NCBI GenBank assembly: GCA_965263065.1
Contig: CBDHGH010000003.1
Coordinates: 1,796,537-1,860,536, forward strand
Origin: Dehalococcoidia bacterium
Lineage (GTDB): Bacteria > Chloroflexota > Dehalococcoidia > Bin125
DNA: 64,000 bases
Direction: 5' to 3'
The translations under genes and the position numbers were made by a program. Position 1 is the first letter of the stretch; each line of letters begins with the position of its first letter. Shown here piece by piece: positions 14,096-50,533 of the stretch. Under the pieces are notes generated by a model. The model worked only from the letters and a program-made list of their open reading frames with translations, made no database searches and had not been told where the DNA came from.

Positions 14096-14155
14096 GCCGC
14101 TTGACGCCCTGCCGCTTGACGCCCCGCCGCTTGACGCCCCGCCGCTTAACGATGG
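14096..14155. repeat. four tandem 15-bp iterons GCCGCTTGACGCCCC (last copy degenerate)
   Basis: Direct tandem copies at 14096, 14111, 14126 and 14141 in the divergent hisG/VIT intergenic region. Each carries a TTGACG -35-like hexamer. A TACGAT -10-like box lies at 14182-14187, just before the VIT start. Confidence 0.6.
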
Positions 14156-14193
14156 TCCCGGCCCCGTCGCCGCCCGTCCGGTACGATCACGCC

Positions 14194-15303
14194 ATGACCG
14201 CGACGAGCACGGACCAGGATCGCGAGGCGCGCCTGCGCGAGATGCTCGCCGACGAGCTCGACACCGCCTGGCTCTACGACACCCTCGCCGATCACGCCCG
14301 CAACCCCAACGAGGCCGACACCCTCCACGAACTCGCCGAGGCCGAGCGCCGCCACGCCCAGCATTGGGCCGAGCGCCTCGACGATCCCTCCCTGATTGGC
14401 GGCCCCGTCCGGCCCGCCTGGCGCACGCGCGGGCTCGTGCTCATGGCCCGCGTCGCCGGCGTGGGCGCCGTGCTCCCGCGTCTGCGCGCCGCCGAGCTCG
14501 ACGACATCCGCCGCTACCAGGCCGAGCCGGAGGCCGGCGGCCTCGCCGCCGAGGAGATCGAGCACCGCGAGACCCTGACCGCGCTCGCCGCCGGCGACCG
14601 CCTCGGCGAGGGCGACCACGGCTTCGCCTCGGCCGACACCGCCACCACCTTCCGCGCCGCCCTGTTCGGCCTCAACGACGGCATCGTCTCCAACCTCAGC
14701 CTCATCGCCGGCGTCGCCGGCGCCGCCATCCAGAGCGACGCCGTGCTCATCGCCGGCATCGCCGGCTGGCTCGCGGGCGCGTTCTCGATGGGCGCCGGCG
14801 AGTACATCTCCGTGCGCAGCCAGCGCGAACTCTTCGAGCACCAGATCGCCCGCGAGCGGCTGGAACTCGAACTCGCCCCCGAGGAGGAGCGCGCCGAACT
14901 GCTCGCCATCTACCGCCGCAAGGGCGTCTCTGCCGACGTCGCCCGGCGCCTCGTCGATGAGATGATGGCCAACCCCGAGGTCGCCCTCGACACCCTGGCG
15001 CGCGAGGAGCTCGGCCTCGACCCGGCCGCCCTGGGATCGCCCTGGCGCGCCGCCGCCGGCTCCTTCGTGGCCTTCTCCCTGGGCGCGATCGTGCCGGTGA
15101 TCCCGTTCCTGGCCGGCTCCGGCTACTGGGCGCTGGCCGCCGCCATCATCGCCGGCGTCGCCACCCTGGGCGTCGCTGGCGTGTTCACCTCGCTGCTCAC
15201 CGGGCGGCACCCGCTCTACGCGGCCGGACGCATGATCCTCATCGGCCTGGCCGCCACCGCCGTCACCTTCGCCATCGGCTCCGTCATCCCGATCGATCTC
15301 TGA
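14194..15303 (+). CDS. VIT1/CCC1-family iron/manganese transporter with N-terminal erythrin (ferritin-like) domain
   Basis: N-terminal rubrerythrin-like region (EAERRHAQHW, EIEHRE) and a C-terminal VIT membrane domain (LNDGIVSNLSLIAGVAGA, GAGEYISV). The listed ORF 13360..15303 has a spurious 5' extension. Confidence 0.85.
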   Translation: MTATSTDQDREARLREMLADELDTAWLYDTLADHARNPNEADTLHELAEAERRHAQHWAERLDDPSLIGGPVRPAWRTRGLVLMARVAGVGAVLPRLRAAELDDIRRYQAEPEAGGLAAEEIEHRETLTALAAGDRLGEGDHGFASADTATTFRAALFGLNDGIVSNLSLIAGVAGAAIQSDAVLIAGIAGWLAGAFSMGAGEYISVRSQRELFEHQIARERLELELAPEEERAELLAIYRRKGVSADVARRLVDEMMANPEVALDTLAREELGLDPAALGSPWRAAAGSFVAFSLGAIVPVIPFLAGSGYWALAAAIIAGVATLGVAGVFTSLLTGRHPLYAAGRMILIGLAATAVTFAIGSVIPIDL

Positions 15304-15667
15304 CGCCCGCGCCGTCGCGCCGGCGCGTGAGCGCCCCCTGTGGCCGAAACAAGCCGTGTGGTCGAAGGAGGCCGTGTGCTGGAAAGACGAAGCCCCGCCA
15401 GGGAGGGCGGGGCTTCAGTCCGGGAATAGGTCGCAACGCGGATTGCGGTCCATCCCCAATTGCTCAGGCATGAAGATCATATAGCATTCGACCCCCTATC
15501 GTCATCCCCGCCGGGCCGTCGCGATCGTATGGCAGATGACAGAAGCCCCGCCGATCGGGGCGGGGCGTCAGTCGTCGGGACGGCCCGAATAGCTGACTGC
15601 GATCCATCGAACCCTCTAAGGCCTCCCGGATTCTACGATCACGCGGGAGCAAGTGCGCGTCGCGCAG

Positions 15668-15884
15668 AGAACAGGCCCCATTGCTGGGGCCGTATGCGGA
15701 CGAAAACGATATGTCTGTTGCGGCCGACAGCCAAGGCTACGGGCCATGTACGTGCGGCCCGACGAGCCGGCCGCTGGCATCCTACCAGCGACCCCGCCGC
15801 CCCGTCAAACCGGCTACCCCCGCTCGACCTCCACGCGCCCGAGCGACCCGTCCGCCGGCAGCAACGACTGCAGCGTCCCGCCGT
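15668..15884. repeat. direct repeat copy 1 (217 bp, about 90% identical to 16458..16674), with a decayed copy of the nuoG-like 3' end
   Basis: Aligns base-for-base with the 3' end plus downstream flank of the nuoG-like gene. The minus strand here reads MHGGTLQSLLPADGSLGRVEVERG*, a pseudo C-terminus of that gene. An internal GGCCCCATTGCTGGGGCC hairpin is also present. Confidence 0.7.
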
Positions 15885-15892
15885 GCATGACT

Positions 15893-16384
15893 CTAGCTCG
15901 GGTCCATCACCCGGACGGCGATCGCGTTCGACCGGAGGACGGAGCGATGGTCGCGAGCGATCGCGTTGAGGACCAACGTCTCTCCAACGCGCACATGGGC
16001 GTCCGGCTCGTGCGCTCCGAAGAAGAATGAATCTCTCTCGAAGCCCTCCACGCGCCAGACCTCCGGTACATGATCGCCTCGAACTTCCGCGATCGTGTGG
16101 TGCCACAGCAACTTGCACCGGCGCCGGCGCACCTCGAAGCGCAGATCCTCAAGATGAGTCACCGGTGCTTTGCTCGTGACTGTGACTTTGATGGTGCCGA
16201 TGATCGTCAAGTAACGGTCCTTCGGCGTCGGCGCGGCATAGATCGGCACGTTCGGGTGACGGTTGTGGCGCTTCTCTACCGCTTCGATGTGGATGCGTGG
16301 CTTCTCATGCTGCCCACTGTTCCAGCGCTCGACCGCCCAACGGAAGAGTGAAAGCGGTGCTAGGAGCAGGCCCAACCATTCCAT
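15893..16384 (-). CDS. hypothetical protein, 163 aa, N-terminal TM anchor, lower-GC insert
   Basis: MEWLGLLLAPLSLFRWAV... followed by a soluble domain with no family I can recognise. The body is visibly less GC-rich (about 58% by eye) than its surroundings. It sits exactly between the two 217-bp direct repeats. Confidence 0.5.
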   Translation of the reverse strand: MEWLGLLLAPLSLFRWAVERWNSGQHEKPRIHIEAVEKRHNRHPNVPIYAAPTPKDRYLTIIGTIKVTVTSKAPVTHLEDLRFEVRRRRCKLLWHHTIAEVRGDHVPEVWRVEGFERDSFFFGAHEPDAHVRVGETLVLNAIARDHRSVLRSNAIAVRVMDPS

Positions 16385-16457
16385 GTCCGAACTCCGTGAA
16401 GCCCCAGCAGCATGTCAGAGCCGAGACTGCGGGAACACCAAGTGCTCTCCGCGCAAA

Positions 16458-16674
16458 AGAACAGGCCCCATTGCTGGGGCCATATGCGGACGAAAACAAT
16501 ATCTGCGTTGTGGCGGGCCGCCGAAGCTGCGGGCCATGTACATGTGGCCCGACGAGCCGGCCGCTGGCATCGTATCAGCGCGTGAGATGACCCGTCAAAC
16601 CGACTACCCCCGCTCGACCTCCACGCGCCCGAGCGACCCGTCCGCCGGCAGCAGCGACTGCACCGCCCCGCCGT
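16458..16674. repeat. direct repeat copy 2 (contiguous with the authentic 3' end of the nuoG-like gene)
   Basis: Same 217-bp unit as 15668..15884. It covers the last roughly 23 codons of the 860-aa gene plus about 145 bp of its downstream flank. Confidence 0.7.
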
Positions 16675-19186
16675 CCCAGAGCAGCGACGCGAAGACCGAC
16701 CCCGGCGCCACGTCCTGCGAGACCCGCGCCGTGATCGGCAGCGCCGTACCGTTGCCCCGCAGGACCACCGCCGCCCCGTCCTCGATGCCGCGCGCCGCCG
16801 CGTCGGCCGGGTGCAGGTCGACGAACGCGCTGCGGCCCAGCCGGTCGGCGTCGTCCATCCGCAGCGCCGCCGACGTGCGGTCGGTGTAGAGGTCGCGGCC
16901 CGTCAGCAGGACCAGCTCGCCGTCGCCGCTGCTCTCCAGCGTCGCCACCGCGCCGAACGCTTGGCTCATCGCCCCGTTCGAGGGCTGCCGCGCCGCGCTC
17001 AGCAGCCGCGATACCGTCGCGTCCGCGTAACGGGCGTCGCTCGCGGCCAAGGCCTCCATCGCCGCGGCCGGACCCTCCGGCAGCGCCGGGTCGTCCCGGT
17101 CCATCGCCGACGCCAGCGACGCCCCCAGCGCGCGCAGGTGCGACAGCGCTGGCTGCGCGCCCCGCTGCGGCCGGTAGGCCGCCCGCAGGCGCAGCATCTG
17201 GCGGTCGGCGTTGGTCACCGTGCCGTCCTTCGCGAAGACCGACACGTCGGCCAGCACGTGCGTCGCCAGCGCCACCGTGTCGGTCGCCGCTTCGTCGATC
17301 ACCAGCAGCAGGTCCAGCGTCTCCAGCGCCGTCCGCACCGCCGCCCGATCGGGCAGCGTCAGCAGCGGGTTGTCCTTCAGCACGATCAGCGCCTTCAGCG
17401 ACCCCGCCCGCGCCGCCGCCAGCATCCCGTCGACGTCCAGGCCGGCGTCGCCGGGACGCACGCCCGCGTCGCGCAGGCCGATGGTGTTGTTCTCGGGCGG
17501 CAGCACGTGCAGCGACGCGGGCGCCGCCTCGGGGCCCGCCAGCACGATCGCCAGGTTCGCCGCCGCCCGCACCTGCTCCCCCGCCGCGACTGCGTTGTGC
17601 CGCGACGGCGCGACCACGACCGCCACCGTCCCGCCGGTGCTCGCGGCCAAGGCCTCGGCGGCCGCGTCGGTCTCCGGCGACTGCGTCGCCGCTACTGCGT
17701 CCGCGCCGGGGAGGCCGGCCGCCTCGCCGTCGCGCGTCAGCAGCGCCGCCGCGATGGCCTGCGCCGTCGCGCCGATGTCGCCGCCGCGCGGCCGCAACTC
17801 GACGGCGGCGTAGTCGTCGATCGGGTTGCGGCGCGCGCTCAGGCTGACCAGCGTCGCCCCCCGGTTGACCACCGCATCCTTGATTCGCACGCCCAGCACG
17901 TTGTTGCTGCCGCTGAGGTCGTCGCCGATCACGACGAGCGTCCCCGCCTCCTCCACCGACGTCAGCCGCCCCGGCAGATGCACGCTGCCGAAGCTGTCGC
18001 GCAGCGCCGCCTCGACCGCCCCCCAGACCGACCCCACGCTCGCGTCGAGGTGCGGCGTGCCCAGCCACGACGCCAGCCGCGCCAGCGCGTAGTTCTCCTC
18101 GGTCGTCGCCTGGCCCGACCCCAGCAGCCCGACCGACGCCGCGCCGTGCGCCGCGACGATCGCCGCCAGCTTGGCGCTCGCGTCCCGCAGCACCACCGGC
18201 GTCTCGGCGTCGAATGCGTCCTGGCCGCGGCCCAGCCGCCCCGCGAGCAGCCGCTGCCGGTCGCGCACCTGGTCGTAGCCGAAGCGCCCGCGCACGCAGA
18301 TCTGGTCGCGCGACACGTCGTTGCCCGCCGACGGCCGCACGATCACGCCGCGGCCGTCGCGCACGCCGATCTGGATCGTGCAGCCCATGCTGCACTCGGT
18401 GCAGACGGTGCTGGCCCAGCGCTCGGGCCGCGCCAGCCACTTGTTGGGCGCCTCCATCAGCGTCGCCGTGGGGCAGACGTCGACGCAGGCGCCGCAGAAG
18501 TCGCAGTTCGACTCATCGATCGCGCCGCCCGCCCCGAACGCCATCCGCGTCGAGAAGCCGCGTCCGGCCAGCGTGATCGCCGTCGTGTGGCGCAGGTCGT
18601 CGCAGGCCCGCTCGCAGCGCGTGCAAAGGATGCACATCTGCGGGTCGAACTCGAAGTAGGGGTTGCCGCGGTCGGGCGGCGGCTGCTCGTACTGGTAGTA
18701 CGTACGCGCCTCGTCGAGGTACGGCTCGACGTTCGCGCGACCCATGTCCGCCACGTCCGACGCCGTCTGCAGCTCGCAGCGGTAGTTCTTCGAGCAGGTC
18801 ACGCAGCGATGCGTGACCACGTTGTCGCGCAGGCAGATGTCGCCGGTGCGGCAGTGCTCCACGCGGTGACAGGTCAGGCAGCGGTCGCTGTGGTTGGCCA
18901 GGATGAACGCCATGACCTCCTGGCGCATCTCCATCGAGGCCGGGCTGTCGGTCCGCACGACCATGCCCTCGCGCACGGCGGTGCTGCAGGCCAGCACCTG
19001 CCCGCGCATCCCCTCGACCTCGACGACGCACGTGCGGCAGCCCGCGTAGGCCGGCAGCCCGTCGATGTAGCAGAGGTTCGAGATGTAGATCCCGGCCTCC
19101 TTGATGACCTCCACCAAGGGACGGCCGGCCTCGACCACGTGGGCCGCGCCGTTAATCGTGATGTCCACCGTCGTGCTGGCGACCAT
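16604..19186 (-). CDS. NuoG-like molybdopterin oxidoreductase (2Fe-2S plus 4Fe-4S N-terminus, Mo-bisPGD-type domain)
   Basis: The N-terminal ferredoxin-like module, CxxC 4Fe-4S motifs and large molybdopterin-oxidoreductase body resemble NADH dehydrogenase subunit G or formate-dehydrogenase-type subunits. Confidence 0.8.
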   Translation of the reverse strand: MVASTTVDITINGAAHVVEAGRPLVEVIKEAGIYISNLCYIDGLPAYAGCRTCVVEVEGMRGQVLACSTAVREGMVVRTDSPASMEMRQEVMAFILANHSDRCLTCHRVEHCRTGDICLRDNVVTHRCVTCSKNYRCELQTASDVADMGRANVEPYLDEARTYYQYEQPPPDRGNPYFEFDPQMCILCTRCERACDDLRHTTAITLAGRGFSTRMAFGAGGAIDESNCDFCGACVDVCPTATLMEAPNKWLARPERWASTVCTECSMGCTIQIGVRDGRGVIVRPSAGNDVSRDQICVRGRFGYDQVRDRQRLLAGRLGRGQDAFDAETPVVLRDASAKLAAIVAAHGAASVGLLGSGQATTEENYALARLASWLGTPHLDASVGSVWGAVEAALRDSFGSVHLPGRLTSVEEAGTLVVIGDDLSGSNNVLGVRIKDAVVNRGATLVSLSARRNPIDDYAAVELRPRGGDIGATAQAIAAALLTRDGEAAGLPGADAVAATQSPETDAAAEALAASTGGTVAVVVAPSRHNAVAAGEQVRAAANLAIVLAGPEAAPASLHVLPPENNTIGLRDAGVRPGDAGLDVDGMLAAARAGSLKALIVLKDNPLLTLPDRAAVRTALETLDLLLVIDEAATDTVALATHVLADVSVFAKDGTVTNADRQMLRLRAAYRPQRGAQPALSHLRALGASLASAMDRDDPALPEGPAAAMEALAASDARYADATVSRLLSAARQPSNGAMSQAFGAVATLESSGDGELVLLTGRDLYTDRTSAALRMDDADRLGRSAFVDLHPADAAARGIEDGAAVVLRGNGTALPITARVSQDVAPGSVFASLLWDGGAVQSLLPADGSLGRVEVERG

Positions 19187-19225: not shown

Positions 19226-19711
19226 TCAGTGGTGCTGGCGCTCGCCGCTGGGGTGGATCTCCTGACGCACGGCCGGCTGCCCGTTGGGGTACACCCAGTC
19301 GTGCGAGTCCAGGTACTCGTTCGCCAGCGACGTCAGCGTCGGCTTGTCGTGGTACAGCTCGTTGGGGTCCCGCACGACGTTGGTGTACGAGCCGCCGACC
19401 TGGATCGCCTCGTACGGGCAGGCCTCCGCGCAGAGCCCGCAGTACATGCACAGGCGGAAGTCGATCTCGTAGCGCTCCACCAGATAGGAGCCGTCCTCGC
19501 GGGGCTGCGTCTGCACCAGGATGCAGCCGTCGGGGCAGGCCTGCGCGCAGGTGCTGCAGCCCGTGCAGCGCTCGACGAACCAGACCAGGTTCGTGCGGGC
19601 GCGCGGCGGGATCGGCCGCTCCGTCTCGGGGAACTCGAAGGTCGTGGGCTCCCGCACGAGATGCTTGATCGTCGTCAGCAAGCCCTTGGCGATGCCGATC
19701 CCGTACGTCAT
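19226..19711 (-). CDS. nuoI: NADH-quinone oxidoreductase subunit I-like (2x[4Fe-4S] ferredoxin)
   Basis: Two CxxCxxCxxxCP motifs ([24 protein letters not shown]), length 161 aa. Confidence 0.85.
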
Positions 19712-20478
19712 GAGCCCGGCTCCCCGTGCTTCGGCAGGCCATGCATCGACTGATAGTTGGTGTCGTGCGGCAGCGCGCCGGTCTTGGCGTCGCGCGGCAG
19801 CCCGCTGACGCTCAGGTAGGGCGGGAAGAGCGATTCCAGCTCGCGACGGATCGGGTCGCCCTCGGGCAGCATCGTCGAGAAGTCACCGTCCGGCTCCGGC
19901 CGCCGGCGCTTGCCCAGCAGCCCCTCCTCCTTCATGACGTCCTGCAGCAGCATCAGCCCCGACAGCAGCGACTCCGGTCGCGGCGGGCAGCCCGGCACGT
20001 AGACATCGACCGGCACGACGTTGTTGACACCCGGCAGCGTGCTGTAGCCGTGCGCGAACGGCCCCCCGATGTTGCTGCACGAGCCCATCGAGATGACCCA
20101 CTTGGGCTCCGCCATCTGCAGGTAGATGCGGCGCACCGCCGGCGCCATCTTCCAGGTCACCGTGCCCGCCACGATCATCAGGTCGGCCTGGCGCGGCGAG
20201 GCCCGGAACACCTCGGCCCCGAAGCGTGCGATGTCGTAGCGCGCGTTCGCCGTCGCGATCATCTCGATCGCGCAGCACGCCAGCCCGAACATCGCCGGCC
20301 ACAGCGACGAGCGCCGCGCCCACGTCAGCACGCTGTCCACCTTTGTGATCAGCAACTGCTGGCGCAGGTCCGACTCAATGTCCGTCACGCCGCCGGCCGC
20401 GCCTGGGGGCGGCTCGACGTTCAGCACCGGGATCGTCTCGCGATCGGCCACGCGTCCTCCCCTTGTGAAGTCGGGCAC
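19708..20478 (-). CDS. nuoB: NADH-quinone oxidoreductase subunit B-like (NuoB/hydrogenase small-subunit fold) with about 80-aa C-terminal extension
   Basis: [26 protein letters not shown] and VPGCPPRPE motifs. Overlaps nuoI by 4 nt. Confidence 0.85.
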
Positions 20479-20529: not shown

Positions 20530-21693
20530 TCAGCCGATGGGCGACAGCGCCCGCAGCCGCTCGATCGCCTCGGGCAGCACCAGGCCGACGCGGTCGACCT
20601 GCGCCTGCGTGGTGCCCTGCCCCAGTGTCAGCCGCAGCGCCGAGTGCGCCAGGTCGGAATCGACGCCCATCGCCGTCAGCACGTGGCTGGGCTCGCTCGA
20701 CCCCGTCGTGCAGGCCGAGCCGGAGCTCGCCGCGACGCCCTCCATGTCGAGGTGCAGCAGGATGCTCTCGCCCTCGACCCCGGCGAAGCAAACGCTCAGG
20801 TTGTTGGGCAGCCGGCGCGCCATGTCGCGCGGGCCGTTCAGCGACACGTGCTCGACCCCCTCGCGCAGATGCCGCCACAGCCGATCGCGCAGGCCGCCCA
20901 CGTGCGCGTTGCGCGACGCCATCTCCGCGTGCGCCAGATCGAGCGCCGTCGCCAGCGCGACCGCCCCCGCGACGTTCTCCGTCCCCGCCCGGCGCTCGCC
21001 CTCCTGCCCGCCGCCGATGATCAGCGGCGCAAACGGCGTCCGATGCCGCACGTAAAGGGCGCCCGTGCCCTTCGGCCCGTAGATCTTGTGCGCTGTCAGC
21101 GACAGCAGGTCGACGCCCAGCGCGTCGGGCCGGATGTCGATCGCGCCCGCCGCCTGCACGGCGTCGGTGTGCACCAGCGTGCGCGGGTTGCGCGCCTTCA
21201 CCGCCGCCGCGATCGCCGCGATCGGCTGCACCGTGCCCACCTCATTATTGGCCGCCATGACCGTGAGCAGCGCCGTGTCGTCGCGGACGGCGTCGGCCGC
21301 GACCGCCGGGTCGACGAAGCCCTCGCCATCGACGGGCAGGATCGTGACCTCCCAGCCCTCCCGCTCAAGCGCCTCCAGCGGCTCCAGCACCGCGTGGTGC
21401 TCGATCGCCGACGTGATCATGTGCCGCCCCGTCGATGCCGCCGCGACGCCGCGGATGGCCGCGTTGTCGGCCTCGGTCCCGCCCGACGTGAAGACGACCT
21501 CCCCCGGGCGTGCAGCCCAGCCGTCCCGCCACGACGTCGCGCGCCTCGTCGAGCGCCTGCCGGGCGCGCTGCGCCTCGCGGTAGATGCCCGACGGGTTGC
21601 CCCAGCCCTCGCGCAGGATCGGCAGCATCGCCGCGATCACGCGCGGGTCCACGGGCGTCGTCGCCGCATGATCGAGGTACACCCGTTCGGACA
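20530..21693 (-). pseudogene. second cysteine desulfurase (IscS/NifS family) interrupted by a +1 frameshift in a G5/C5 homopolymer
   Basis: The N-terminal frame MSERVYLDHAATTPVDPRVIAA...LGCTPG (ORF 21365..21940) and the C-terminal frame MITSAIEHHAVL...SSGSACT (ORF 20530..21420) are both NifS-like. They join if one G is removed from the CCCGGGGGAGG run at about 21501-21505, where PGEVVFTSGGTE is expected. Confidence 0.6.
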
Positions 21694-21860: not shown

Positions 21861-22247
21861 ATGACGACGATGAACATCCCCGCCCTGCTGAACGTTAGCG
21901 ACCTCGCCGCCGAGAAGGCCGTCGGCCTGCTCAAGGACAAGGGCTTCGCCGACGGCGCCCTGCGCGTCTTCGTCGTCGGCGGCGGCTGCAGCGGCTACCA
22001 GTACGGCATGGCCCTCGCCACCGAGGCCGAGCCCGGCGACCAGGTGATCGAGACCGGCGGCGTCCGCTTCCTCGTCGACCCCGACAGCGCGCCGCTGCTG
22101 ATCGGCGCCCACGTCGACTACGTGGACGACATCATGAAGCAGGGCTTCAGCATCACCAACCCCAACGCCGCCAAGAGCTGCGCCTGCGGCACCTCGTTCG
22201 ACACCGCCGACAGCGCCGGCGCGTCGCAGGCCCGCTCCTGCGTCTGA
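21861..22247 (+). CDS. A-type iron-sulfur cluster carrier (IscA/ErpA/HesB family)
   Basis: Conserved cysteines (VVGGGCSGYQYG, CACGTSF). RBS GAGAAGGA upstream. Divergent from the frameshifted cysteine desulfurase. Confidence 0.85.
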   Translation: MTTMNIPALLNVSDLAAEKAVGLLKDKGFADGALRVFVVGGGCSGYQYGMALATEAEPGDQVIETGGVRFLVDPDSAPLLIGAHVDYVDDIMKQGFSITNPNAAKSCACGTSFDTADSAGASQARSCV

Positions 22248-22268: not shown

Positions 22269-22670
22269 TCAGTCCTCCGCGACAACCGTGAAGGGGACGG
22301 TGGCGACGAGTTCGTAGCCCACGTGGAGACAGAACTCGTAGTCACCGAATTCATCAATCGCGAGGTCCGGGATCCGGCAGATGAAGCCTGCGATATCGCG
22401 GTCGCCCGGGGACGGTCGCGTGAACTGAGCCGTCGTGCGCGTTATGGCGAATGTGTCATCGGGGCCGAGGAGCCGGAACTCGACATCCTTCCGCCCCGCC
22501 TCGTCGACCGAGTACGTGACCCCGATCACGAGGGTCATTGTTGGGATCACCGGGCTCCGTCGGGTGACCGGAATGGTCCTGATCGGGAAGCCCTCGATCG
22601 TCAGTCGGTCGCTGGCGGCTGCGTCCTCCGGCGTGACGGCTGCGCAGAGGAAGGCGAATTGCGATTCCAT
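22269..22670 (-). CDS. hypothetical protein (133 aa), lower-GC islet
   Basis: Coding-like composition, no recognisable family. Its first 20 codons overlap out of frame with the upstream 59-aa repeat-module ORF, so the true start may be the internal ATG near 22538. Confidence 0.4.
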   Translation of the reverse strand: MESQFAFLCAAVTPEDAAASDRLTIEGFPIRTIPVTRRSPVIPTMTLVIGVTYSVDEAGRKDVEFRLLGPDDTFAITRTTAQFTRPSPGDRDIAGFICRIPDLAIDEFGDYEFCLHVGYELVATVPFTVVAED

Positions 22671-22790
22671 TCCTCACGCTCCTCGGGGCTCAGAATCCGG
22701 AGAGTGACGGTCTTGAACTCCATCCCGCCATATGTCGCGGTCGATTCGGCCGGCTCGGACGGCTGAGAGTCAGTGGTCATGGCTGCCGGG
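22610..22790 (-). CDS. small repeat-module protein (59 aa; MTTDSQPSEPAES...EEREEWNRN...PPATD)
   Basis: Below the ORF-track size cutoff. Same N-terminus (MTTDSQPSE), central EEREEW motif and C-terminus (PPATD*) as the modules of the adjacent 107-aa protein. Confidence 0.35.
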
Positions 22791-22844
22791 CTCCTATTCG
22801 TGGTCCCATCCTACACGGAAGCAGCAGGGCAAATGCGGCACGCG

Positions 22845-23168
22845 TCAGTCGGTCGCCGGCGGCGGCTCATTCCGATCTGACTCGTCCCCAGGGGAAGGCG
22901 GATTGCGATCCCATTCCTCGCGCTCCGCGGGGGTGAATAGCCGGACCGGGCCGATCCTCACGAACTTGCCGAAGCCGAACTTCGCGGTCGATTTGGACTG
23001 CTCGGGTGGCGGAGAGTCGGTGGTCGGCGGCAAGGAAGACGGATTGCGGTCCAGTTCCTCGCGCTCCGCGGGGGTGAATAGCCGGACCGGGCCGACCCTC
23101 ACGAACCGGCCGTAGCCGAACTTCGCGGTCGAGTCGGGCTGCTCGGACGGCTGAGAGTCGGTGGTCAT
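22845..23168 (-). CDS. tandem-repeat small protein (107 aa; two copies of a 47-aa module)
   Basis: MTTDSQPSEQPDSTAKFGYGRFVRVGPVRLFTPAEREELDRNP, then STAKFGFGKFVRIGPVRLFTPAEREEWDRNP, then ...PPATD*. The underlying DNA has about 145-bp tandem repeats spanning 22870-23170. Confidence 0.45.
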   Translation of the reverse strand: MTTDSQPSEQPDSTAKFGYGRFVRVGPVRLFTPAEREELDRNPSSLPPTTDSPPPEQSKSTAKFGFGKFVRIGPVRLFTPAEREEWDRNPPSPGDESDRNEPPPATD

Positions 23169-25646: not shown

Positions 25647-28600
25647 TCAGGGCGCGTTGGGGGGCTCGAAGAGGCTCCGGGCGATGGCGATGACGGCGTC
25701 GACGTTGCTTCCACGAAGGCTTTTTGTTTTCCCAAGAATCGCGTACTCGGCCTCGGTGGACGCGTCGTAGATCCAGACCGTCACCGGGAATAAGTCACTA
25801 TGGTTCGGACCTGACGGGCTGTACGCCACTCGCGCCGGCCGCCCGGCGATGACCCTCGTCTCGTACACGCCCCGGCCGTTCCGCCAGGATGCCTCTCGCG
25901 GGTGGCCTCGGTAGTCCGCGTAGTAGCCAAAAACTGTGAAGGCGCTCCCGCCTCTTTCTGTTGCGAAGTCCGCCCAGTACCCGTAGGCGGGACCACTGAC
26001 GTCGCCGCTGACCGCCCATGCGAACGTCCAGCCTGCGGGGAGCGCCGGGTCACGCCAGTAGGGAAGCTGTCGCGCCTCCGCGAGATTCGTGGTGTAGGCA
26101 GGGTTCGCGTAGGAGTCGCCCGGGAGCGGGTACGTGTCGGGCTCTTCCACCGCGCCGGTCCAACCTGCGGGGACGAGTTGGTATGGACCGTGGCGCACGG
26201 GCGAGGTCAGGCTCGGGCCGCCCAGGTCGGGCAGCGGGCCGAACTGCAGGCTGGCCGTCGCGGTCGGGGAGATGGCGCCGCTGCAGCCTGTGAAGGCGTA
26301 GGTCATCCAGGCCACGGCCAGCAGCTTGCGCGGGGGGTCGCCGGCCGGGTCGTCCTTGACGTCGGTCACCGTGTAGCGCACGAAGCAATCGCTGGCTTGG
26401 CGCCACTCGAAAAGGTCGCCCGCCTCCACGAGGTCCAAGAGGTCCGCCTGCGAGGCACCGGCACTGTCGTGCTTGTGGATCACGAGGCCGGTCGTGCTGC
26501 CGTCGCGCAGGCCCTCGTAGGTCGTGATCATCGTGGTGAGGTCGTCGGGGTCGGTGAGGAAGGCGTAGTCGCCGTCGTCTGTGACGCTCCCGGTCGTCGT
26601 GGGGGCGCCGTAGGTCAGGGTCGTCGAGGGCAGATCGCAGTCCGCCAGGCCGAGCGCGGCGAAGTCGTTGGAGCGCATGCCCGCCAACTCACGCGGCAGG
26701 CAGCCGGTGAAGCGGTTGTCCGCCAAATACACGATCAGGTGGGGCGGATTCCTCAGTTCCACCGGGATCGGCCCGCTCAACTGATTCCCGCGCAGGTCCA
26801 GCACCACCAGCCCCGCAAGGTTCCCCAGCGCCGCCGGGATCGGCCCGCTCAACTGATTCCCGCCCAGGTCCAGCACCTCCAGCGCCGCGAGGTTCCCCAG
26901 CGCCGCCGGGATCGGCCCGCTCAACTGATTCCCGCCCAGGTCCAGCACCTCCAGCGCCGCGAGGTTCCCCAGTTCGGGTGGAATCGCGCCCGTCAGGCGG
27001 TTCTCGTGGAGCGCCAGCCGCTGCAACTGCGCGAGGTTCCCCAACTCCGGCGGGATCGGCCCCGTCAGCCGGTTGCCGTCAAGCTGCAAGTACGTCAGGC
27101 GCGCCAGGTCGCCCAACTCGGGCGGGATCGCACCCGTCAGCCGGTTCTCGCCGAGCGTTAGGGACCCCAACTGCGCGAGGTTGCCCAACTCGGGCGGGAT
27201 CGGCCCCGTCAGCCGGTTGGCGGAGAGCGTCAGGTACTTCAACTGCGCGAGGTTCCCCAACTCCGGCGGGATCGCGCCCCACAGCAGGTTGCCGTGGAGG
27301 TACAGGACCTCCAGGCGCGCGAGGGCGCCCAGCTCCGGCGGGATTGGCCCCGTCAGCCGGTTGTCGTAGAGCCTCAGGGTTTTCAGGCGCGTGAGGGCGC
27401 CCAACTCCGGCGGGATCGGCCCCATCAGCCGGTTCTCGTGGAGCGCCAGCCGCTGCAACTGCGCTAGGTTCCCCAACTCCGATGGGATCGCACCCGTCAG
27501 CCGGTTCTCGCGGAGCACAAGGGACTCCAACTGCGCGAGGTTGCCCAACTCGGGCGGGATCGCGCCCGTCAGTTGGTTGTTGGGGAGGTGCAGGCTCCCC
27601 AGGCGCGCGAGGGCGCCCAATTCCGGCGGGATCGAGCCCGTCAGGCGGTTCCCGTTGAGGTTCAGGACCCCCAGGCGCGCGAGGGCGCCCAACTCCCGCG
27701 GGATCGCGCCCGTCAGCCGGTTGCCGTGCAGCCACAGCCGCTGCAACTGCGCGAGGTTGCCCAACTCCGGCGGGATCGGCCCCGTCAGCCGGTTGTTGTT
27801 GAGCAACAGGCTCTCCAGGCGCGCGAGGGCGCCCAACTCCCGCGGGATCGCGCCCGTCAGCCGGTTGTTGTACAGCCGCAGGATCCTCAACTGCGCGAGG
27901 TTGCCCAACTCCGGCGGGATCGGCCCCGTCAGCCCGTTCCCGTTGAGCCACAACCACTGCAACCGCGCGAGGGCGCCCAACGCCGGCGGGATTGTGCCCG
28001 TCAGCGCGTGCCCCTCCAGGTCCAACGCCGTCACGTGCGGCGGCGTCCCGCCCACGGTGACCCCGTCCCAGGCCGTGATCCCCCGGTCCGCGCTCCAGTC
28101 GAGCGCCGCCGTGCCGCGCAGCCTGCCCCTCGCCGCCAGCAGGATCGCGCAGTCGGCGACCAAGCCGGGGTTATTCGCCGCGTCGGGCACGGCCGCCCCG
28201 GCCGCGCAGGGCCCGGGCGGCGGCGGCGCCGGCGCACCGCCGGCCGCGTCGCGGCCCGGCTGGATGTTCTCCGGCGTCCAGGTGAAGGTGCGAGTCCCCC
28301 GCGTGGTGATCGGCCCGCTGGTGCAGCCGGTATAGGCGTAGGAGTAGACCTGAATCGTCAGCAGCGTGCGCGGCGGATCGCCCGCCGGGTCGGCGTGGAC
28401 TTCATCGACGTGGTAACGCACCCAGCAGTCGGCAGCCTCGCGCCACTCCACCAGGTCGCCCGCCTCCACCTGGGCGTAGAAGACCGCCTGCGAGGCGCCG
28501 GAGATGTCGTTCTGGTGCAGCACCAAGCCGATGCGGGTACCGGCGCGCAGCCCCTCGTAGGTGGTGATGGCGCTGGTGAGGTCGTCGGGGTCGGTGAGGA

Positions 28601-29513
28601 AGGCGTAGTCGCCATCGGTCGGGACACTGTCCGTCGTGATGGGGGGACCGTAGGTCAGGCTCTCGGACCCCAGCGGACAGGAAGCCAGGCCGAGCTGCGC
28701 CACGTCGTTGCGCTCCACCTGGGCGAGGGCGCGCAGCAGGCAGCCCGTGAGGTCGTTCTGGGAGAGAGAGAGTTCGCTTAGGGGGAGATCGGCCAGCCCG
28801 GGCGGGATCGCGCCCGTCAACTGGTTCTGCTGGAGTTGCAGGATCCTCAACTGCGCGAGGTTTCCCAGCTCCGGTGGGATCGCGCCCGTCAGCCGGTTCC
28901 AAGCGAAGTCCAGGGTCCCCAGGCGTGCGAGGTTGCCCAACTCGGCCGGGATCGCGCCCGTCAGCCGGTTCACGAACAGCGATAGCACCTCCAACCGCGC
29001 GAGGTTGCCCAACGCTGGCGGGATCCGCCCGCTGAGCTGGTTGTACCCCAGGTGCAACCGCCGCAATTGACTGAGGTCGCCCAGCGCGGCCGGGATCGTG
29101 CCCGTCAGCGCGTGCCCCTCCAGGCGCAACTCCGTCACGCGCGGCGGCGTCCCGCGCAGCGTGTCCTTCGCCGCCAGCAGGATCGCGCAGTCGGCGACCA
29201 GGCCGGGGTTGTTCGCCGCGTCGGGCACGGCCGCCCCGGTCGCGCAGGGGCCGGGCGGCGGCTCCAGAGGGACGCCGGGGGCCGCGCAGATCCGCCAGCC
29301 GACGCCGATCTCGAAGCAGGTGACCGCCGGCTCCGTGCCCTGCGCCGCCGCCGGCGCGGCGCCGGACGGCAGCAGGATCGCCGCGGCCACGCCGATCAGC
29401 AGCAGGGCCGCGAGCAGCGGCGTCACAACGACGGCGAAGCGCCTGCGGTCGGGCATCTCATCTCCGGGAACGACCGCCGCGGCGCGAAGGTTCCCGCCCG
29501 CGGCCAACCTCAC
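25647..29513 (-). CDS. large secreted/membrane-anchored leucine-rich-repeat protein (1288 aa, plant-specific-type LRRs)
   Basis: N-terminal signal/TM. Two LRR blocks (about 7 and about 20 units of LxxLxLxxNxLTGxIPPELGNLAxL), each preceded by a Cys-containing cap (CATGAAVPDAANNPGLVADCAILLAA) and followed by a duplicated roughly 170-aa domain. A unique roughly 280-aa C-terminal domain follows. Confidence 0.85.
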   Translation of the reverse strand: MRLAAGGNLRAAAVVPGDEMPDRRRFAVVVTPLLAALLLIGVAAAILLPSGAAPAAAQGTEPAVTCFEIGVGWRICAAPGVPLEPPPGPCATGAAVPDAANNPGLVADCAILLAAKDTLRGTPPRVTELRLEGHALTGTIPAALGDLSQLRRLHLGYNQLSGRIPPALGNLARLEVLSLFVNRLTGAIPAELGNLARLGTLDFAWNRLTGAIPPELGNLAQLRILQLQQNQLTGAIPPGLADLPLSELSLSQNDLTGCLLRALAQVERNDVAQLGLASCPLGSESLTYGPPITTDSVPTDGDYAFLTDPDDLTSAITTYEGLRAGTRIGLVLHQNDISGASQAVFYAQVEAGDLVEWREAADCWVRYHVDEVHADPAGDPPRTLLTIQVYSYAYTGCTSGPITTRGTRTFTWTPENIQPGRDAAGGAPAPPPPGPCAAGAAVPDAANNPGLVADCAILLAARGRLRGTAALDWSADRGITAWDGVTVGGTPPHVTALDLEGHALTGTIPPALGALARLQWLWLNGNGLTGPIPPELGNLAQLRILRLYNNRLTGAIPRELGALARLESLLLNNNRLTGPIPPELGNLAQLQRLWLHGNRLTGAIPRELGALARLGVLNLNGNRLTGSIPPELGALARLGSLHLPNNQLTGAIPPELGNLAQLESLVLRENRLTGAIPSELGNLAQLQRLALHENRLMGPIPPELGALTRLKTLRLYDNRLTGPIPPELGALARLEVLYLHGNLLWGAIPPELGNLAQLKYLTLSANRLTGPIPPELGNLAQLGSLTLGENRLTGAIPPELGDLARLTYLQLDGNRLTGPIPPELGNLAQLQRLALHENRLTGAIPPELGNLAALEVLDLGGNQLSGPIPAALGNLAALEVLDLGGNQLSGPIPAALGNLAGLVVLDLRGNQLSGPIPVELRNPPHLIVYLADNRFTGCLPRELAGMRSNDFAALGLADCDLPSTTLTYGAPTTTGSVTDDGDYAFLTDPDDLTTMITTYEGLRDGSTTGLVIHKHDSAGASQADLLDLVEAGDLFEWRQASDCFVRYTVTDVKDDPAGDPPRKLLAVAWMTYAFTGCSGAISPTATASLQFGPLPDLGGPSLTSPVRHGPYQLVPAGWTGAVEEPDTYPLPGDSYANPAYTTNLAEARQLPYWRDPALPAGWTFAWAVSGDVSGPAYGYWADFATERGGSAFTVFGYYADYRGHPREASWRNGRGVYETRVIAGRPARVAYSPSGPNHSDLFPVTVWIYDASTEAEYAILGKTKSLRGSNVDAVIAIARSLFEPPNAP

Positions 29514-39400: not shown

Positions 39401-39713
39401 AGACGGCTGTCCTCGTTCGCTCCACCGATTCGCGGAAGTAGGGATTCCGGATGGCGGAATCCACCACCAAGTCCACGGACCGCCCAAAGAGCCCCTGGAG
39501 CGCGTCGAGCAGCCCGAAGTAGGCGTCCGCGTAGCCGACGAGCGCCGCCGGCTGGAACTCGACCAGGAAGTCCAGGTCGCTCGCGTCCGGATCGTCCCTG
39601 CCGGTTGCGACCGACCCGAACAGGTCGAGCCTCTGGACGCCGTACCTGAGACAGAGGCGTCGCAACTCGTCGGTCTGGTCGTCAACCGTAGGGATCATGC
39701 CAGTTTCGCCCAT
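39390..39713 (-). CDS. nucleotidyltransferase-domain protein (MNT/MntA-type antitoxin of HepT-MNT modules)
   Basis: GSVATGRDDPDASDLDFLVEF is the minimal nucleotidyltransferase (GS...D.D) signature. Confidence 0.75.
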   Translation of the reverse strand: MGETGMIPTVDDQTDELRRLCLRYGVQRLDLFGSVATGRDDPDASDLDFLVEFQPAALVGYADAYFGLLDALQGLFGRSVDLVVDSAIRNPYFRESVERTRTAVYEA

Positions 39714-39841
39714 TCGTTCCGTACCCTAGCAGGGCGGCGATGGACCCCTGAACCGGAGTGCAAGCGTGTCACGGGCCATCCTGCGATCTTGCGCAGAGCC
39801 TGGCGACACTGGCGCGTGCGAATGCTTCGTGCGCAGCCTCT

Positions 39842-45480: not shown

Positions 45481-45664
45481 GGACCGGAAGGGCAATGGGG
45501 GCGAGAGTCCGGGGTCGGCGCCACCGCCTAGCCCCCTCTCCCCTCCGACCCCCCCGCTCCGTTGCTCGGCAATGGAGCGGGGGTTCGGGGGCGAGGTTCC
45601 CCCGCGCGATCGCACGCCGGAACCCCACGAGTGACACAGGGGGGGGTTCCAACAGCGCCCGAAT

Positions 45665-45740
45665 CCGAAAAATTCGGTGGATAACCCCATAATTTCCTTC
45701 CTATTTGACATAACGGGGGGGGGGGGTGCACTCTTATAAT
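45665..45740 (+). promoter_or_regulatory. AT-richer regulatory region: CCGAAAAATTCGG palindrome, TTGACA ... G12 tract ... TATAAT
   Basis: Perfect inverted repeat at 45665-45677. TTGACA at 45705-45710 and TATAAT at 45735-45740, separated by 24 nt that include an uninterrupted run of 12 G (45715-45726). This is the only strongly AT-enriched segment near the ABC operon start. Confidence 0.35.
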
Positions 45741-45813
45741 GTGCGATACTGTGCGTGCTCACGCACCGAGCGATCCCACAAAGGGACAGCCGGGGACCGG
45801 AAGGGAACATGTG

Positions 45814-49570: not shown

Positions 49571-50533
49571 ATGGCGCGCTACATCACCACGCGGATCGTC
49601 TCCTCGCTGATCATCCTGTGGATCATCAGCATCCTCGTCTTCCTGCTCATGACCGTGTTGCCCGGCGATCCCACGTTGAGCGGGCTGGAGGCGACCCCCG
49701 AGCACCGTGAGCTCCTCCGCGAACGCATGGGCCTGAACGATCCGCTGCCGCAGCGCTACGGCGACTGGCTGTTCCACGCGTTGCAGGGCGATCTCGGGTT
49801 CAGCTTGGCCAAGTTCAACGAGAACATCACGATCAGCAGCGTCTTTTCCCGGCGCATCCCCGCCACGGTGGAGTTGGGCATCTTGAGCCTGCTCGTGGTC
49901 GTGACCGTGGCGGTGCCGATCGGCGTGCTGGCGGCGCTGAAGCCCGGGTCCAAGCGGGAAGTGGCGGCCAGCACGGCCATGATCGTGGGCAACTCGATCC
50001 CGGAGTTCGTCACCGGCATCGCGCTGATCCTCGTGATCGCGCTGCGCTTCGACCTCCTGCCGGTCGGGGGCTACGTCGCCTTCACGGACGATCCGATCGA
50101 GAACCTGAAGCGCATGGCGATGCCGGTGCTGGCCATCTCGCTGACCGCGACGACGCTGCTGATGCGGCAGACGCGCTCGGCCATGATCAACGTGCTCAGC
50201 GACGACTACATCCGCACCGCCCGCGCCAAGGGGCTGCGCGAGCGCGCCGTCGTCGTCCGCCACGGCCTGCGCAACGCCCTGATCCCGGTGATCACGATCT
50301 TCGGCTTCCAGGCCGGGCTGATCTTCAGCGGCGCGGTGATCACCGAGAGCGTCTTCAACATCCCGGGCATGGGCCGCCTGTTCGTCGAGAGCGTCGTCAT
50401 CGAGCAGGACTACCCCGTGATCCAGAACCTCGTCATGTTCTTCGCGATCGCCACCCTGCTCGTGAATCTCCTGGTCGACCTCTCCTACACGCTGATCGAT
50501 CCGCGCATCCGGACGGGCGGGAGGGGCGCATGA
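49571..50533 (+). CDS. ABC transporter permease (DppB/OppB-like)
   Basis: The N-terminal RIVSSLIILWIISILVFLLMTVLPGDP and the EAA-loop region are typical of BPD-transporter permeases. Confidence 0.85.
   Translation: MARYITTRIVSSLIILWIISILVFLLMTVLPGDPTLSGLEATPEHRELLRERMGLNDPLPQRYGDWLFHALQGDLGFSLAKFNENITISSVFSRRIPATVELGILSLLVVVTVAVPIGVLAALKPGSKREVAASTAMIVGNSIPEFVTGIALILVIALRFDLLPVGGYVAFTDDPIENLKRMAMPVLAISLTATTLLMRQTRSAMINVLSDDYIRTARAKGLRERAVVVRHGLRNALIPVITIFGFQAGLIFSGAVITESVFNIPGMGRLFVESVVIEQDYPVIQNLVMFFAIATLLVNLLVDLSYTLIDPRIRTGGRGA

What the first reader, a model, noticed from the sequence alone, without database searches (positions are those of the whole stretch)
15304..16700. Low-GC 163-aa ORF bracketed by 217-bp direct repeats that duplicate the 3' end of the nuoG-like gene
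The segment 15668-15884 is about 90% identical to 16458-16674. The latter is the authentic last roughly 23 codons of the 860-aa NuoG-like gene plus about 145 bp of its 3' flank. The former retains a decayed pseudo C-terminus (MHGGTLQSLLPADGSLGRVEVERG*). Exactly between the copies sits a 163-aa ORF (15893..16384, same strand) that is visibly AT-richer than the roughly 70% GC background. It encodes an N-terminally anchored protein with no family I can recognise. The structure resembles an integrated cassette with attL/attR-like duplication of a gene 3' end, but no recombinase is present. It may be a remnant, a cassette mobilised in trans, or an insertion via homology arms. The 163-aa protein is a candidate accessory (for example phage-exclusion or defense) factor.
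Basis: seen in the sequence. Interest (0 to 1): 0.7.

Follow-up and report, generated by a model that had tools for sequence, protein, structure and literature searches.

The report
Orphan gene islet beside nuoG-like gene
A small foreign-looking gene of unknown function sits in a strain-variable gap between two core genes of an uncultured marine Dehalococcoidia bacterium, bracketed by a diverged duplication of the neighbouring gene's tail; this is an ordinary recombination-hotspot insertion, not a new kind of mobile element.

Summary
Window 15668-15884 and 16458-16674 are direct repeats (189/217 identical). With one indel they extend to 15650-15886 and 16439-16676. Copy B is the real last 24 codons of the NuoG-like gene plus a promoter-like and terminator-like flank. 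Copy A is a displaced pseudo-tail.

ORF163 (15893-16384, minus strand) lies between the copies. Its GC3 is 0.77, against 0.93-0.98 for host genes. It looks like a real gene: dN/dS 0.32, an in-frame indel and a GGAG ribosome-binding site. It is an orphan, with one homologue among billions of proteins.

Orthologous loci in related Dehalococcoidia genomes show a hotspot. Three are empty. One carries a DUF3800 gene. One carries a 73-aa ORF. One Tara scaffold carries ORF163 without the full second repeat.

The three cargo junctions differ. No recombinase was found among 16 neighbouring genes tested. The two copies differ more from each other (79-83% in non-coding parts) than copy B differs from its orthologue in L002 (91-95%).

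My best reading is a horizontally acquired single-gene islet placed by homologous recombination between diverged alleles, not site-specific att duplication. There is no evidence of a defence function. Interest is modest.

The parts
16604..19186 (-). NuoG-like gene (860 aa), a core gene that forms the left border of the hotspot
   Evidence: Pfam finds Fer2_4, Fer4, Molybdop_Fe4S4, Molybdopterin and Molydop_binding. NCBIfam NuoG scores 228 bits, below the cut-off. Orthologues are 79-94% identical in L002, L003, L005 and L006, plus the C-terminal fragment in L009 (83%).
16439..16676 (-). Repeat copy B: the authentic last 24 codons of the nuoG-like gene (16604-16676) plus its 3' flank (modules P' and E)
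   Evidence: P' is 91% and E is 95% identical to the orthologous flank in L002.
16569..16598 (-). Promoter-like site P' (TTGACG-18-TACGAT with an upstream TG), starting 6 nt after the nuoG stop
   Evidence: 3 sites found against 0.2 expected in shuffles. The A-type version of this motif (nearest to copy A's P, 24/26 by eye) sits about 20 nt upstream of the 73-aa ORF in L003, with a GGAG between them. Promoter function is inferred.
16454..16481 (-). Terminator-like hairpin GGCCCCAGCAATGGGGCC plus a T-run, at the end of module E (copy B)
   Evidence: The hairpin is conserved in copy A, L002 and L001.
16385..16438 (-). Unique leader of ORF163, with GGAG (16395-16392) 7 nt before the ATG
   Evidence: Read from the sequence. 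The last ~36 nt are conserved in L001.
15893..16384 (-). ORF163: an orphan 163-aa protein with an N-terminal hydrophobic helix, a linker, and a beta-rich domain. This is the cargo of the islet.
   Evidence: GC3 0.774, dN/dS 0.32 against L001, and differences of 14/13/25 by codon position; one homologue only; low-confidence beta-sandwich model.
15650..15886 (-). Repeat copy A: the displaced pseudo C-terminus (15814-15888 including a junction ATG) plus modules P and E
   Evidence: The P spacer (GGCGGCGGGG) resembles L005, L009, L001 and L003, not copy B.
15779..15808 (-). Promoter-like site P in copy A (TTGACG-18-TAGGAT)
15664..15691 (-). Terminator-like hairpin of module E in copy A
15489..15623 (-). 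Module R5: resident intergenic DNA with the hairpin GAAGCCCCGCC..GGCGGGGC (15542-15573). It follows P directly in empty sites.
   Evidence: BLAST collinearity with L001, L005, L009 and L003. Hairpin family.
15304..15488 (.). Module R6: resident intergenic DNA with a second hairpin (15389-15420), next to the VIT gene stop
14140..15303 (+). VIT-family gene, convergent with nuoG, a core gene that forms the right border of the hotspot
   Evidence: Pfam VIT1, 5.7e-65. Syntenic in the eight related loci that reach it: L001-L003, L005, L006, L009, L010.

Best explanation
The interval between the convergent nuoG-like and VIT genes is a strain-variable integration hotspot in a lineage of uncultured, high-GC marine Dehalococcoidia. 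In this genome it holds a single horizontally acquired orphan gene, ORF163.

The 237-bp bracket is not an att duplication. It is two diverged alleles of the same local segment (nuoG tail, promoter-like P, hairpin/terminator element E). They were brought side by side when the ORF163 segment entered by homologous recombination.

Two routes are possible. One is a single (Campbell-type) crossover with a circular fragment [tail-P-E-ORF163]. The other is an ordinary double crossover with donor DNA in which ORF163 was already followed by a second nuoG tail. In that case the left arm is nuoG and the right arm is the duplicated tail. Either route leaves an intact nuoG with one allele of the flank, then the cargo, then a displaced pseudo-tail joined to the resident downstream DNA.

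Shown: the repeat, the insertion polymorphism, the foreign composition, coding constraint on ORF163, the differing cargo junctions, and the allelic mosaic.

Inferred: the recombination route and which copy came from the donor.

ORF163 itself is most likely a small membrane-anchored beta-sandwich protein. This rests on a low-confidence model. Its role is unknown.
For: 1. Presence/absence.
- L006 and L010: nuoG, about 30 nt, then VIT.
- L005 and L009: nuoG, P, R5, R6, VIT, with no E and no ORF163.
- L003, the closest relative (94% aa in nuoG, 95% nt on the VIT side), carries a 73-aa ORF instead.
- L002 carries a DUF3800 gene (Pfam 1.8e-15) directly after E and abutting VIT.
- L001 carries ORF163.

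2. The junctions of the three cargos differ.
- ORF163: after E on one side, inside nuoG codon ~837 on the other.
- DUF3800: after the E hairpin on one side, about 24 nt from the VIT stop on the other.
- ORF73: after P on one side, inside R5 on the other.

3. Copy A against copy B is 96% identical in the coding tail, but only 79% in P and 83% in E. Copy B against L002 is 91% in P and 95% in E. Copy A's P spacer matches the L003/L005/L009 type. The copies are therefore older than, or foreign to, the split between these strains. Yet no relative has both.

4. ORF163 has GC3 of 0.77 and the DUF3800 gene 0.80, against 0.93-0.975 for host genes.

5. ORF163 behaves as a gene. dN/dS is 0.32. Third-position differences number 25, against 14 and 13 at the other positions. 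There is an in-frame 21-nt tandem duplication in L001. A GGAG lies 7 nt before the ATG.

6. No integrase or transposase domain was found in the unit or in the 16 neighbouring genes scanned. The window has no tRNA gene.

7. L001's right flank is collinear with the empty-site genome L009 (92.5%), starting about 10 nt after the nuoG stop. So the same cargo sits in two different resident backgrounds.
Against: - The direction of transfer cannot be resolved. Copy B is L002-like and copy A's P is L003-like, so either could be the resident copy.
- The sliding identity profile of nuoG shows no breakpoint near its 3' end. A crossover is therefore not directly visible.
- Only nine related loci exist, and L001 is cut inside E. 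Whether ORF163 always travels with a nuoG tail is unknown.
- The alignment of L001's G-rich junction with the start of the pseudo-tail is ambiguous.
- A 50-nt exact block shared by the copies (15814-15863) would also suit a site-specific core.
- The origin of the first ORF163/nuoG-tail junction is unexplained.
Confidence: 0.55

Rival explanations
1. This is a remnant or satellite of a site-specific integrative element. An element carrying its own copy of the nuoG 3' end (attP) integrated through an integrase, replacing the gene's tail and displacing the resident tail to the far end (attL/attR). The integrase and the rest of the element were later deleted, or the cassette is mobilised in trans.
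For: The layout matches the textbook outcome: intact gene, cargo, displaced 3' end, all on the same strand. The copies share a 50-nt exact block over the last codons. The cargo's composition is foreign. The general mechanism, and remnants without integrases in marine genome islands, are described for tycheposons (bioRxiv 10.1101/2020.12.28.424599).
Against: No recombinase was found in the unit or in the 16 neighbouring genes tested. The other cargos at the same gap use different junctions. L001 has ORF163 without the pseudo-tail or the second E. The repeat is 237 bp at 86%, which is much longer and more diverged than a typical att core.
Confidence: 0.2
2. ORF163 is ancestral at this locus and the repeat is an old in-situ segmental duplication. 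Relatives lost ORF163 and copy A by deletion.
For: Synonymous divergence of ORF163 between the window and L001 (dS 0.24) is of the same order as that of the adjacent VIT gene (dS 0.36). The 13% divergence of the copies would fit an old duplication.
Against: It needs at least four independent, near-precise losses (L002, L003, L005, L009). These include the closest relative of the window and the closest relative of L001. GC3 of 0.77 in a genome at 0.95 argues against long residence. A tandem duplication of the 790-bp unit predicts two copies of ORF163, and only one is present. Copy B is orthologous to L002's flank at 91-95%, while copy A is far more distant.
Confidence: 0.12
3. This is an assembly artefact: a mis-joined or expanded repeat in a metagenome-assembled genome.
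For: The source is a MAG-type assembly. The protein occurs on one 2.7-Mb contig. Reads could not be inspected.
Against: The copies differ at 28 of 217 positions and carry distinct alleles, so assemblers do not confuse them. An independent Tara scaffold has ORF163 at the same locus, between E and the VIT gene.
Confidence: 0.03
4. This is a recombinase-free cassette moved by host Xer-type recombinases, like the dif modules of plasmids, using a site inside the repeat.
For: The cassette is small, has a single gene and no recombinase, and is bracketed by direct repeats that contain imperfect palindromes, for example GGGCCACATGTACATGGCCC.
Against: That palindrome is not conserved between the copies (GGGCCGCACGTACATGGCCC) and does not resemble known dif sites (my own knowledge). 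The element pattern was not found elsewhere in the window, the fetched loci, JGI metagenomes or IMG/VR.
Confidence: 0.03

Closest known systems
Chromosomal integration hotspots between conserved core genes that lack mobile-element genes and turn over by homologous recombination in the flanks (the pan-genome 'hotspot' or flexible-islet concept; named from my own knowledge; cf. PMC2617782 for E. coli, listed but not read)
   Same: There are two syntenic core genes. Four content states occur among close relatives: empty, ORF163, DUF3800 and ORF73. The cargo has atypical composition. No recombinase is present. The flanking alleles are mosaic.
   Different: The islet is tiny: one gene in a 790-bp unit. 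It carries a visible 237-bp diverged duplication of the core gene's tail. Plain double-crossover replacement does not produce such a duplication unless the donor already had it.
Integrase-mediated islands that duplicate the 3' end of their target gene, for example tRNA-targeting islands and the tycheposons of marine Prochlorococcus (bioRxiv 10.1101/2020.12.28.424599)
   Same: The layout is intact gene, cargo, then a displaced partial 3' end as a direct repeat. The host is marine. Integrase-free remnants are known in such islands.
   Different: The target is a protein-coding gene, not a tRNA. No integrase or integrase fragment is present. The repeat is long and 14% diverged. Neighbouring cargos do not share the junction.
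Campbell-type (single-crossover) integration of circular DNA through a cloned homology segment, as with suicide plasmids in genetics (from my own knowledge)
   Same: It predicts exactly this product: the homology segment duplicated as direct repeats around the inserted DNA, with each copy a donor/recipient hybrid.
   Different: This would be a natural event with a 0.8-kb circle of unknown origin. No vector or replication functions are present.
DUF3800 (PF12686) and other small strain-specific ORFs at the same site in relatives
   Same: They occupy the same gap and also have atypical GC3 (DUF3800 0.80).
   Different: They have no sequence relationship to ORF163, which matches no Pfam, NCBIfam, PHROG or PADLOC family.

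Membership tests
Site-specific integrative element (att duplication of a gene 3' end) | Insert flanked by direct repeats that duplicate the 3' end of the target gene | tested here: met
   217-237-nt repeat. Copy B is the functional tail and copy A is the pseudo-tail.
Site-specific integrative element (att duplication of a gene 3' end) | Tyrosine or serine recombinase encoded in or next to the element | tested here: not met
   ORF163 is the only gene in the unit and has no family hit. The 16 neighbouring genes scanned with Pfam include no integrase or transposase. The rest of the genome was not available.
Site-specific integrative element (att duplication of a gene 3' end) | One defined crossover site reused by independent insertions at the locus | tested here: not met
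   ORF163, DUF3800 (L002) and ORF73 (L003) have three different pairs of junctions.
Site-specific integrative element (att duplication of a gene 3' end) | Short identical core within otherwise unrelated arms | tested here: inconclusive
   A 50-nt exact block exists at 15814-15863. However, it lies in the conserved coding tail, and the whole 237 nt is homologous.
Homologous-recombination hotspot / flexible islet between core genes | Conserved syntenic flanking core genes, with variable content among close relatives | tested here: met
   nuoG-like and VIT flank the gap in the eight related loci that span it or reach VIT: L001-L003, L005, L006, L009, L010. There are four content states.
Homologous-recombination hotspot / flexible islet between core genes | Cargo compositionally foreign and free of mobility genes | tested here: met
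   GC3 is 0.77 for ORF163 and 0.80 for DUF3800, against 0.93-0.975 for host genes. No mobility domains were found.
Homologous-recombination hotspot / flexible islet between core genes | Recombination tracts or mosaic alleles in the flanks | tested here: inconclusive
   The modules have different nearest relatives: copy B is closest to L002, and copy A's P is closest to L003, L005 and L009. No breakpoint is visible inside nuoG.
Anti-phage defence protein | Match to a known defence family, or location in a defence island | tested here: not met
   PADLOC gave 0 hits for ORF163. The neighbours are housekeeping genes: nuoB/I/G-like, VIT, hisG, Lon-N.
Phage or plasmid gene | Homologue in phage, plasmid or viral contig collections | tested here: not met
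   PHROGs gave 0 hits. tblastn against phages and plasmids found no match. The IMG/VR scan found no match.
NuoG (TIGR01973 equivalog) | Score above the curated cut-off | tested here: not met
   228.5 bits against a cut-off of 470. The domain set is NuoG/Fdh-alpha-like. 'NuoG-like' is the correct label.
Xer/dif-type recombinase-free module | dif-like 28-bp XerC/XerD site at both ends | not tested
   The dif site of this lineage is unknown. By visual inspection only, the palindrome in E differs between the copies.
Structured small RNA or riboswitch in module E | Rfam match, or a stable fold with covariation | tested here: not met
   No Rfam hit came near its gathering score. Fold z-scores were -1.1 to -1.8. 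One compensatory pair was seen among three sequences.

The most novel reading that the evidence does not exclude
The unit [nuoG tail, promoter P, hairpin element E, cargo] could be a recombinase-free, 'homology-armed' gene cassette. By carrying a copy of a core gene's 3' end downstream of its cargo, it would bring its own right-hand recombination arm. It could then insert into any empty strain of the lineage by ordinary homologous recombination, recreating the duplication each time. P/E would serve as a portable expression and termination platform behind which different orphan genes (ORF163, DUF3800, ORF73) are swapped.
Probability: 0.2. Interest if true: 0.55.

Novelty: new member of a known kind. 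Interest (0 to 1): 0.3.

Why it matters
If the favoured reading is right, this is a clean, small example of how uncultured marine Dehalococcoidia gain and swap single orphan genes at a fixed gap between core genes without any mobile-element machinery. The duplicated gene tail records the recombination event. That is useful for pan-genome and hotspot studies of a lineage with no genetics, but it does not change current concepts. ORF163 adds one more lineage-restricted orphan with evidence of selection. Its function cannot be approached by homology.

Tried and rejected
- Homology searches for ORF163 found nothing usable. I tried Pfam, NCBIfam, PHROGs and PADLOC, a word-indexed search of 5.8 billion proteins, and a full HMMER scan of 1.84 billion representatives. 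The only extra hit, P0003, is a perfect 72-aa tandem-repeat protein whose score is inflated by repetition. BLASTP gave E >= 1.2. I rejected it.
- tblastn against phages and plasmids and a scan of IMG/VR found no match.
- Module E as a repeated mobile element: the pattern TCCGCATANGGCCCCAGNAATGGGG occurs only at this locus, in the window, L001 and L002. It is absent from JGI metagenomes and IMG/VR. Rejected on present data.
- Module E as a small RNA or riboswitch: no Rfam support, and the fold is no better than shuffles.
- The 51/54-aa ORF inside E: differences between the copies fall 3/6/6 by codon position, with nine amino-acid changes in 38 codons. It is not coding.
- A recombination breakpoint inside nuoG: none was seen. 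L003 stays the closest relative over the last ~500 bp of nuoG.
- The second metagenome scan, with the nuoG C-terminal 299 aa, returned only distant empty-site loci.
- The look-up of the window's own ORF163 in the contig index failed.

Full report
**Observation**

All coordinates are window coordinates. The genes discussed are on the minus strand unless stated.

The repeat is real. Window 15668-15884 and 16458-16674 align without gaps at 189/217 positions, 87%. With one indel the homology runs 15650-15886 against 16439-16676, 204/237. Identity drops to chance immediately outside: 16/40 and 13/40. Two internal motifs of 22 and 26 nt each occur exactly twice in the 64 kb, against none expected in shuffles.

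Copy B contains the authentic last 24 codons of the 860-aa gene at 16604-19186. Downstream of the TAG stop it holds two features:
- a promoter-like site, TTGACG-18-TACGAT, at 16598-16569;
- a terminator-like hairpin, GGCCCCAGCAATGGGGCC plus a T-run, at 16481-16454.

Copy A repeats all of this. It has a 24-aa pseudo-tail, MHGGTLQSLLPADGSLGRVEVERG*, at 15888-15814. Its ATG is created at the junction 5 nt after the ORF163 stop. The same two signals follow, at 15808-15779 and 15691-15664.

ORF163 (16384-15893) lies between the copies and is preceded by GGAG 7 nt before its ATG.

The 860-aa protein has the NuoG/Fdh-alpha domain set. It scores below the NCBIfam NuoG cut-off, 228 against 470 bits. 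It sits next to NuoI-like and NuoB genes.

**Composition and coding status of ORF163**

ORF163 has GC 0.618 and GC3 0.774. Six neighbouring genes have GC3 of 0.93-0.975. The region is the lowest-GC stretch of the window: 0.60 against a mean of 0.72 and an sd of 0.035.

The only homologue is P0002, 84% identical, on the 1252-bp Tara scaffold L001. Against it:
- dN/dS is 0.32, compared with 0.12 for the adjacent VIT gene fragment;
- differences number 14, 13 and 25 at codon positions 1, 2 and 3;
- the single indel is an in-frame 21-nt tandem duplication inside the N-terminal hydrophobic helix.

I conclude that ORF163 is a real gene under moderate constraint and of foreign composition.

It has no relatives detectable by any method tried:
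- Pfam, NCBIfam, PHROGs and PADLOC;
- a search of 5.8 billion proteins;
- a full HMMER scan of 1.84 billion representatives, whose one extra hit is a repeat artefact;
- phage, plasmid and IMG/VR collections.

**Comparative anatomy of the locus**

Eight orthologous loci came from one genome scan, one more came from metagenomes, and the Tara scaffold L001 came from the ORF163 homologue look-up. The record titles place the lineage in uncultured Dehalococcoidia/Chloroflexota.

In nuoG orientation I name the pieces as follows:
- tail: the last 24 codons of nuoG;
- P: the promoter-like piece, about 50 nt;
- E: the hairpin/terminator element, about 96-125 nt;
- R5 and R6: resident intergenic DNA with GAAGCCCCGCC...GGCGGGGCTTC hairpins;
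- VIT: the convergent gene.

The states found are these:

| Locus | Relation to window | Order of pieces |
|---|---|---|
| L006, L010 | 79% aa and 76% aa (partial) in nuoG | nuoG, about 30 nt, VIT |
| L005, L009 | 89% and 83% aa | nuoG, P, R5, R6, VIT (empty) |
| L003 | closest relative: 94% aa, 95% nt on the VIT side | nuoG, degenerate P, R5-like copy, P, 73-aa ORF with a C-terminal hydrophobic segment, second half of R5, R6, VIT |
| L002 | 93% aa | nuoG, P', E, DUF3800 gene (Pfam 1.8e-15), VIT, with R5 and R6 missing |
| L001 | — | (cut) E, ORF163, short G-rich joint, P, R5, R6, VIT |
| Window | — | nuoG, P', E(B), ORF163, pseudo-tail, P, E(A), R5, R6, VIT |

L001's right flank is collinear with the empty-site genome L009 at 92.5%, starting about 10 nt after the nuoG stop.

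So the gap is a hotspot with at least four content states among genomes whose core genes are 5-12% diverged. The genomes closest to the window (L003) and to L001 (L009) both lack ORF163.

**What the repeat is**

The two copies are not a fresh duplication.
- Copy A against copy B is 96% identical in the coding tail, but only 79% in P and 83% in E.
- Copy B against the orthologous flank of L002 is 91% in P and 95% in E.
- The most divergent block is the promoter spacer. It reads GTCATCTCACGC in copy B and L002. It reads GGCGGCGGGGTC in copy A. The latter is the type found in L003 (24 of 26 positions, by eye), L005, L009 and L001.

The copies are therefore two alleles of the same local segment with different nearest relatives, joined in one genome. 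This is what recombination between diverged strains produces.

It is not what an in-situ duplication after the split from L003 would give. That would be expected to show less than about 5% divergence.

**Mechanism**

Two homologous-recombination routes give exactly the observed order.
1. A single crossover between the chromosome and a circular fragment [tail-P-E-ORF163]. This duplicates the homology segment around the insert.
2. A double crossover with donor DNA in which ORF163 was already followed by a nuoG tail. The long left arm is nuoG and the short right arm is the duplicated tail (plus P). This re-creates the duplication in every empty recipient.

The shared ORF163-TAG-AGTCATGC joint in the window and L001 suggests the cargo moved as one unit into two different resident backgrounds. 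One background has E downstream and the other does not. In L001, either most of the pseudo-tail was later deleted between G-rich microhomologies, or the right crossover lay at the very end of nuoG. The G-rich alignment cannot decide between these.

I could not see a breakpoint inside nuoG. I also cannot say which copy came from the donor.

**Why not a site-specific element**

- No recombinase was found in the 790-bp unit or in the 16 neighbouring genes scanned.
- Those genes are nuoB, nuoI, class-V aminotransferase, an Fe-S assembly protein, an LRR protein, VIT, hisG, Lon-N, HAD, rhodanese, acetyl-CoA synthetase, a DUF4352 protein and three without a family.
- The window has no tRNA gene.
- The three cargos use three different junction pairs.
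- L001 lacks the full second repeat.

The att model still explains the layout. Integrase-free remnants are documented in marine islands (bioRxiv 10.1101/2020.12.28.424599). I therefore keep it at about 0.2.

Other rivals:
- Vertical descent with losses needs at least four near-precise deletions and conflicts with the GC3 value.
- An assembly artefact is unlikely. The copies differ at 28 positions, and an independent scaffold has ORF163 at the same site.

**Side questions examined**

- Module E is not a dispersed repeat. It occurs only at this locus, and was not found in JGI metagenomes or IMG/VR.
- E has no Rfam match near threshold.
- E does not fold better than shuffles (z -1.1 to -1.8) and shows no useful covariation in three sequences.
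- The 51/54-aa ORF inside E is not coding. Differences fall 3/6/6 by codon position.
- P is plausibly a real promoter. The site count is 3 against 0.2 expected. In L003 the same motif lies about 20 nt upstream of the 73-aa ORF, with a GGAG between them. This is inference.

**Comparison with known systems and verdict**

The finding works like a flexible islet in a core-gene-flanked recombination hotspot. Its layout mimics the att duplication of integrase-borne islands. It fails two defining tests of the latter: a recombinase, and a reused crossover site. There is no evidence for a defence role.

- Novelty: a new member of a known kind, carrying a lineage-restricted orphan gene.
- Interest: 0.3.
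- Most novel reading not excluded: the tail-P-E-cargo unit is a recombinase-free, homology-armed cassette that spreads among strains and behind which orphan genes are swapped (probability about 0.2).

Noticed in passing
window 22269-22670 (-) and 22401-23000: This is a second low-GC patch (0.645-0.65). It holds a 133-aa ORF with atypical GC3 (0.81) just downstream of the Fe-S assembly (HesB/IscA-like) gene at 21861-22247. It may be another strain-specific islet.
   Followed up: partly
window 22893-23166: A 141-nt tandem repeat is present, 1.9 copies at 89% identity. On the minus strand it encodes a repeated ...FG.G.FVR.GPVRLFTPAEREE.DRNP... peptide in a 107-aa ORF (22845-23168).
   Followed up: partly
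window 25647-29513 (-): This is a 1288-aa protein made almost entirely of leucine-rich repeats (LRR_8 at 3e-54). Eukaryote-like repeat proteins of this kind are typical of host-associated (sponge or coral) symbionts. That fits the Tara Pacific and sponge-type sources of the relatives.
   Followed up: no
window 19226-20478 (-) with 16604-19186 (-): The nuoB, nuoI-like and nuoG-like genes form a three-gene cluster. No other nuo genes are adjacent. The next gene (20530-21420) is a class-V aminotransferase that matches only profile positions 92-371, so its start may be mis-called or the gene truncated.
   Followed up: no
L005 8590-8730; L009 715-860; window 15489-15623: In empty sites, promoter-like P is followed about 100 nt later by the R5 hairpin with a T-rich tail. 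This suggests a short conserved transcript (a small RNA, or a nuoG 3'-UTR product) immediately downstream of nuoG.
   Followed up: no
L002 8584-8592; L003 8593-8604: The nuoG stop codon varies. TAG in the window, L005 and L009 is GAG (L002) or TCG (L003). This extends the protein by 3 residues to a TGA that lies inside the -35-like TTGACG of P'.
   Followed up: no
L002 8697-8740: The DUF3800 gene starts only 5 nt after the T-run of the E hairpin (..GGGGCCACTTTTTTTCGACATG). L001 keeps the same CGACATG after E. So E may be the 5' leader of a swapped downstream gene, not just a terminator.
   Followed up: no
L003 8720-8751, 9102-9133, 9255-9286: L003 has three copies of the GAAGCCCCGCC...GGCGGGGCTTC hairpin, where the window has two. 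The extra copy lies upstream of the 73-aa ORF. That cargo is therefore also bracketed by duplicated resident modules.
   Followed up: partly
L001 161-204: A 21-nt in-frame tandem duplication (2.1 copies) lengthens the N-terminal hydrophobic helix of the ORF163 homologue by 7 residues.
   Followed up: yes
window 39401-39800, 45601-47000, 49601-50000: These are further 400-nt windows with GC below 0.66. I did not examine them.
   Followed up: no
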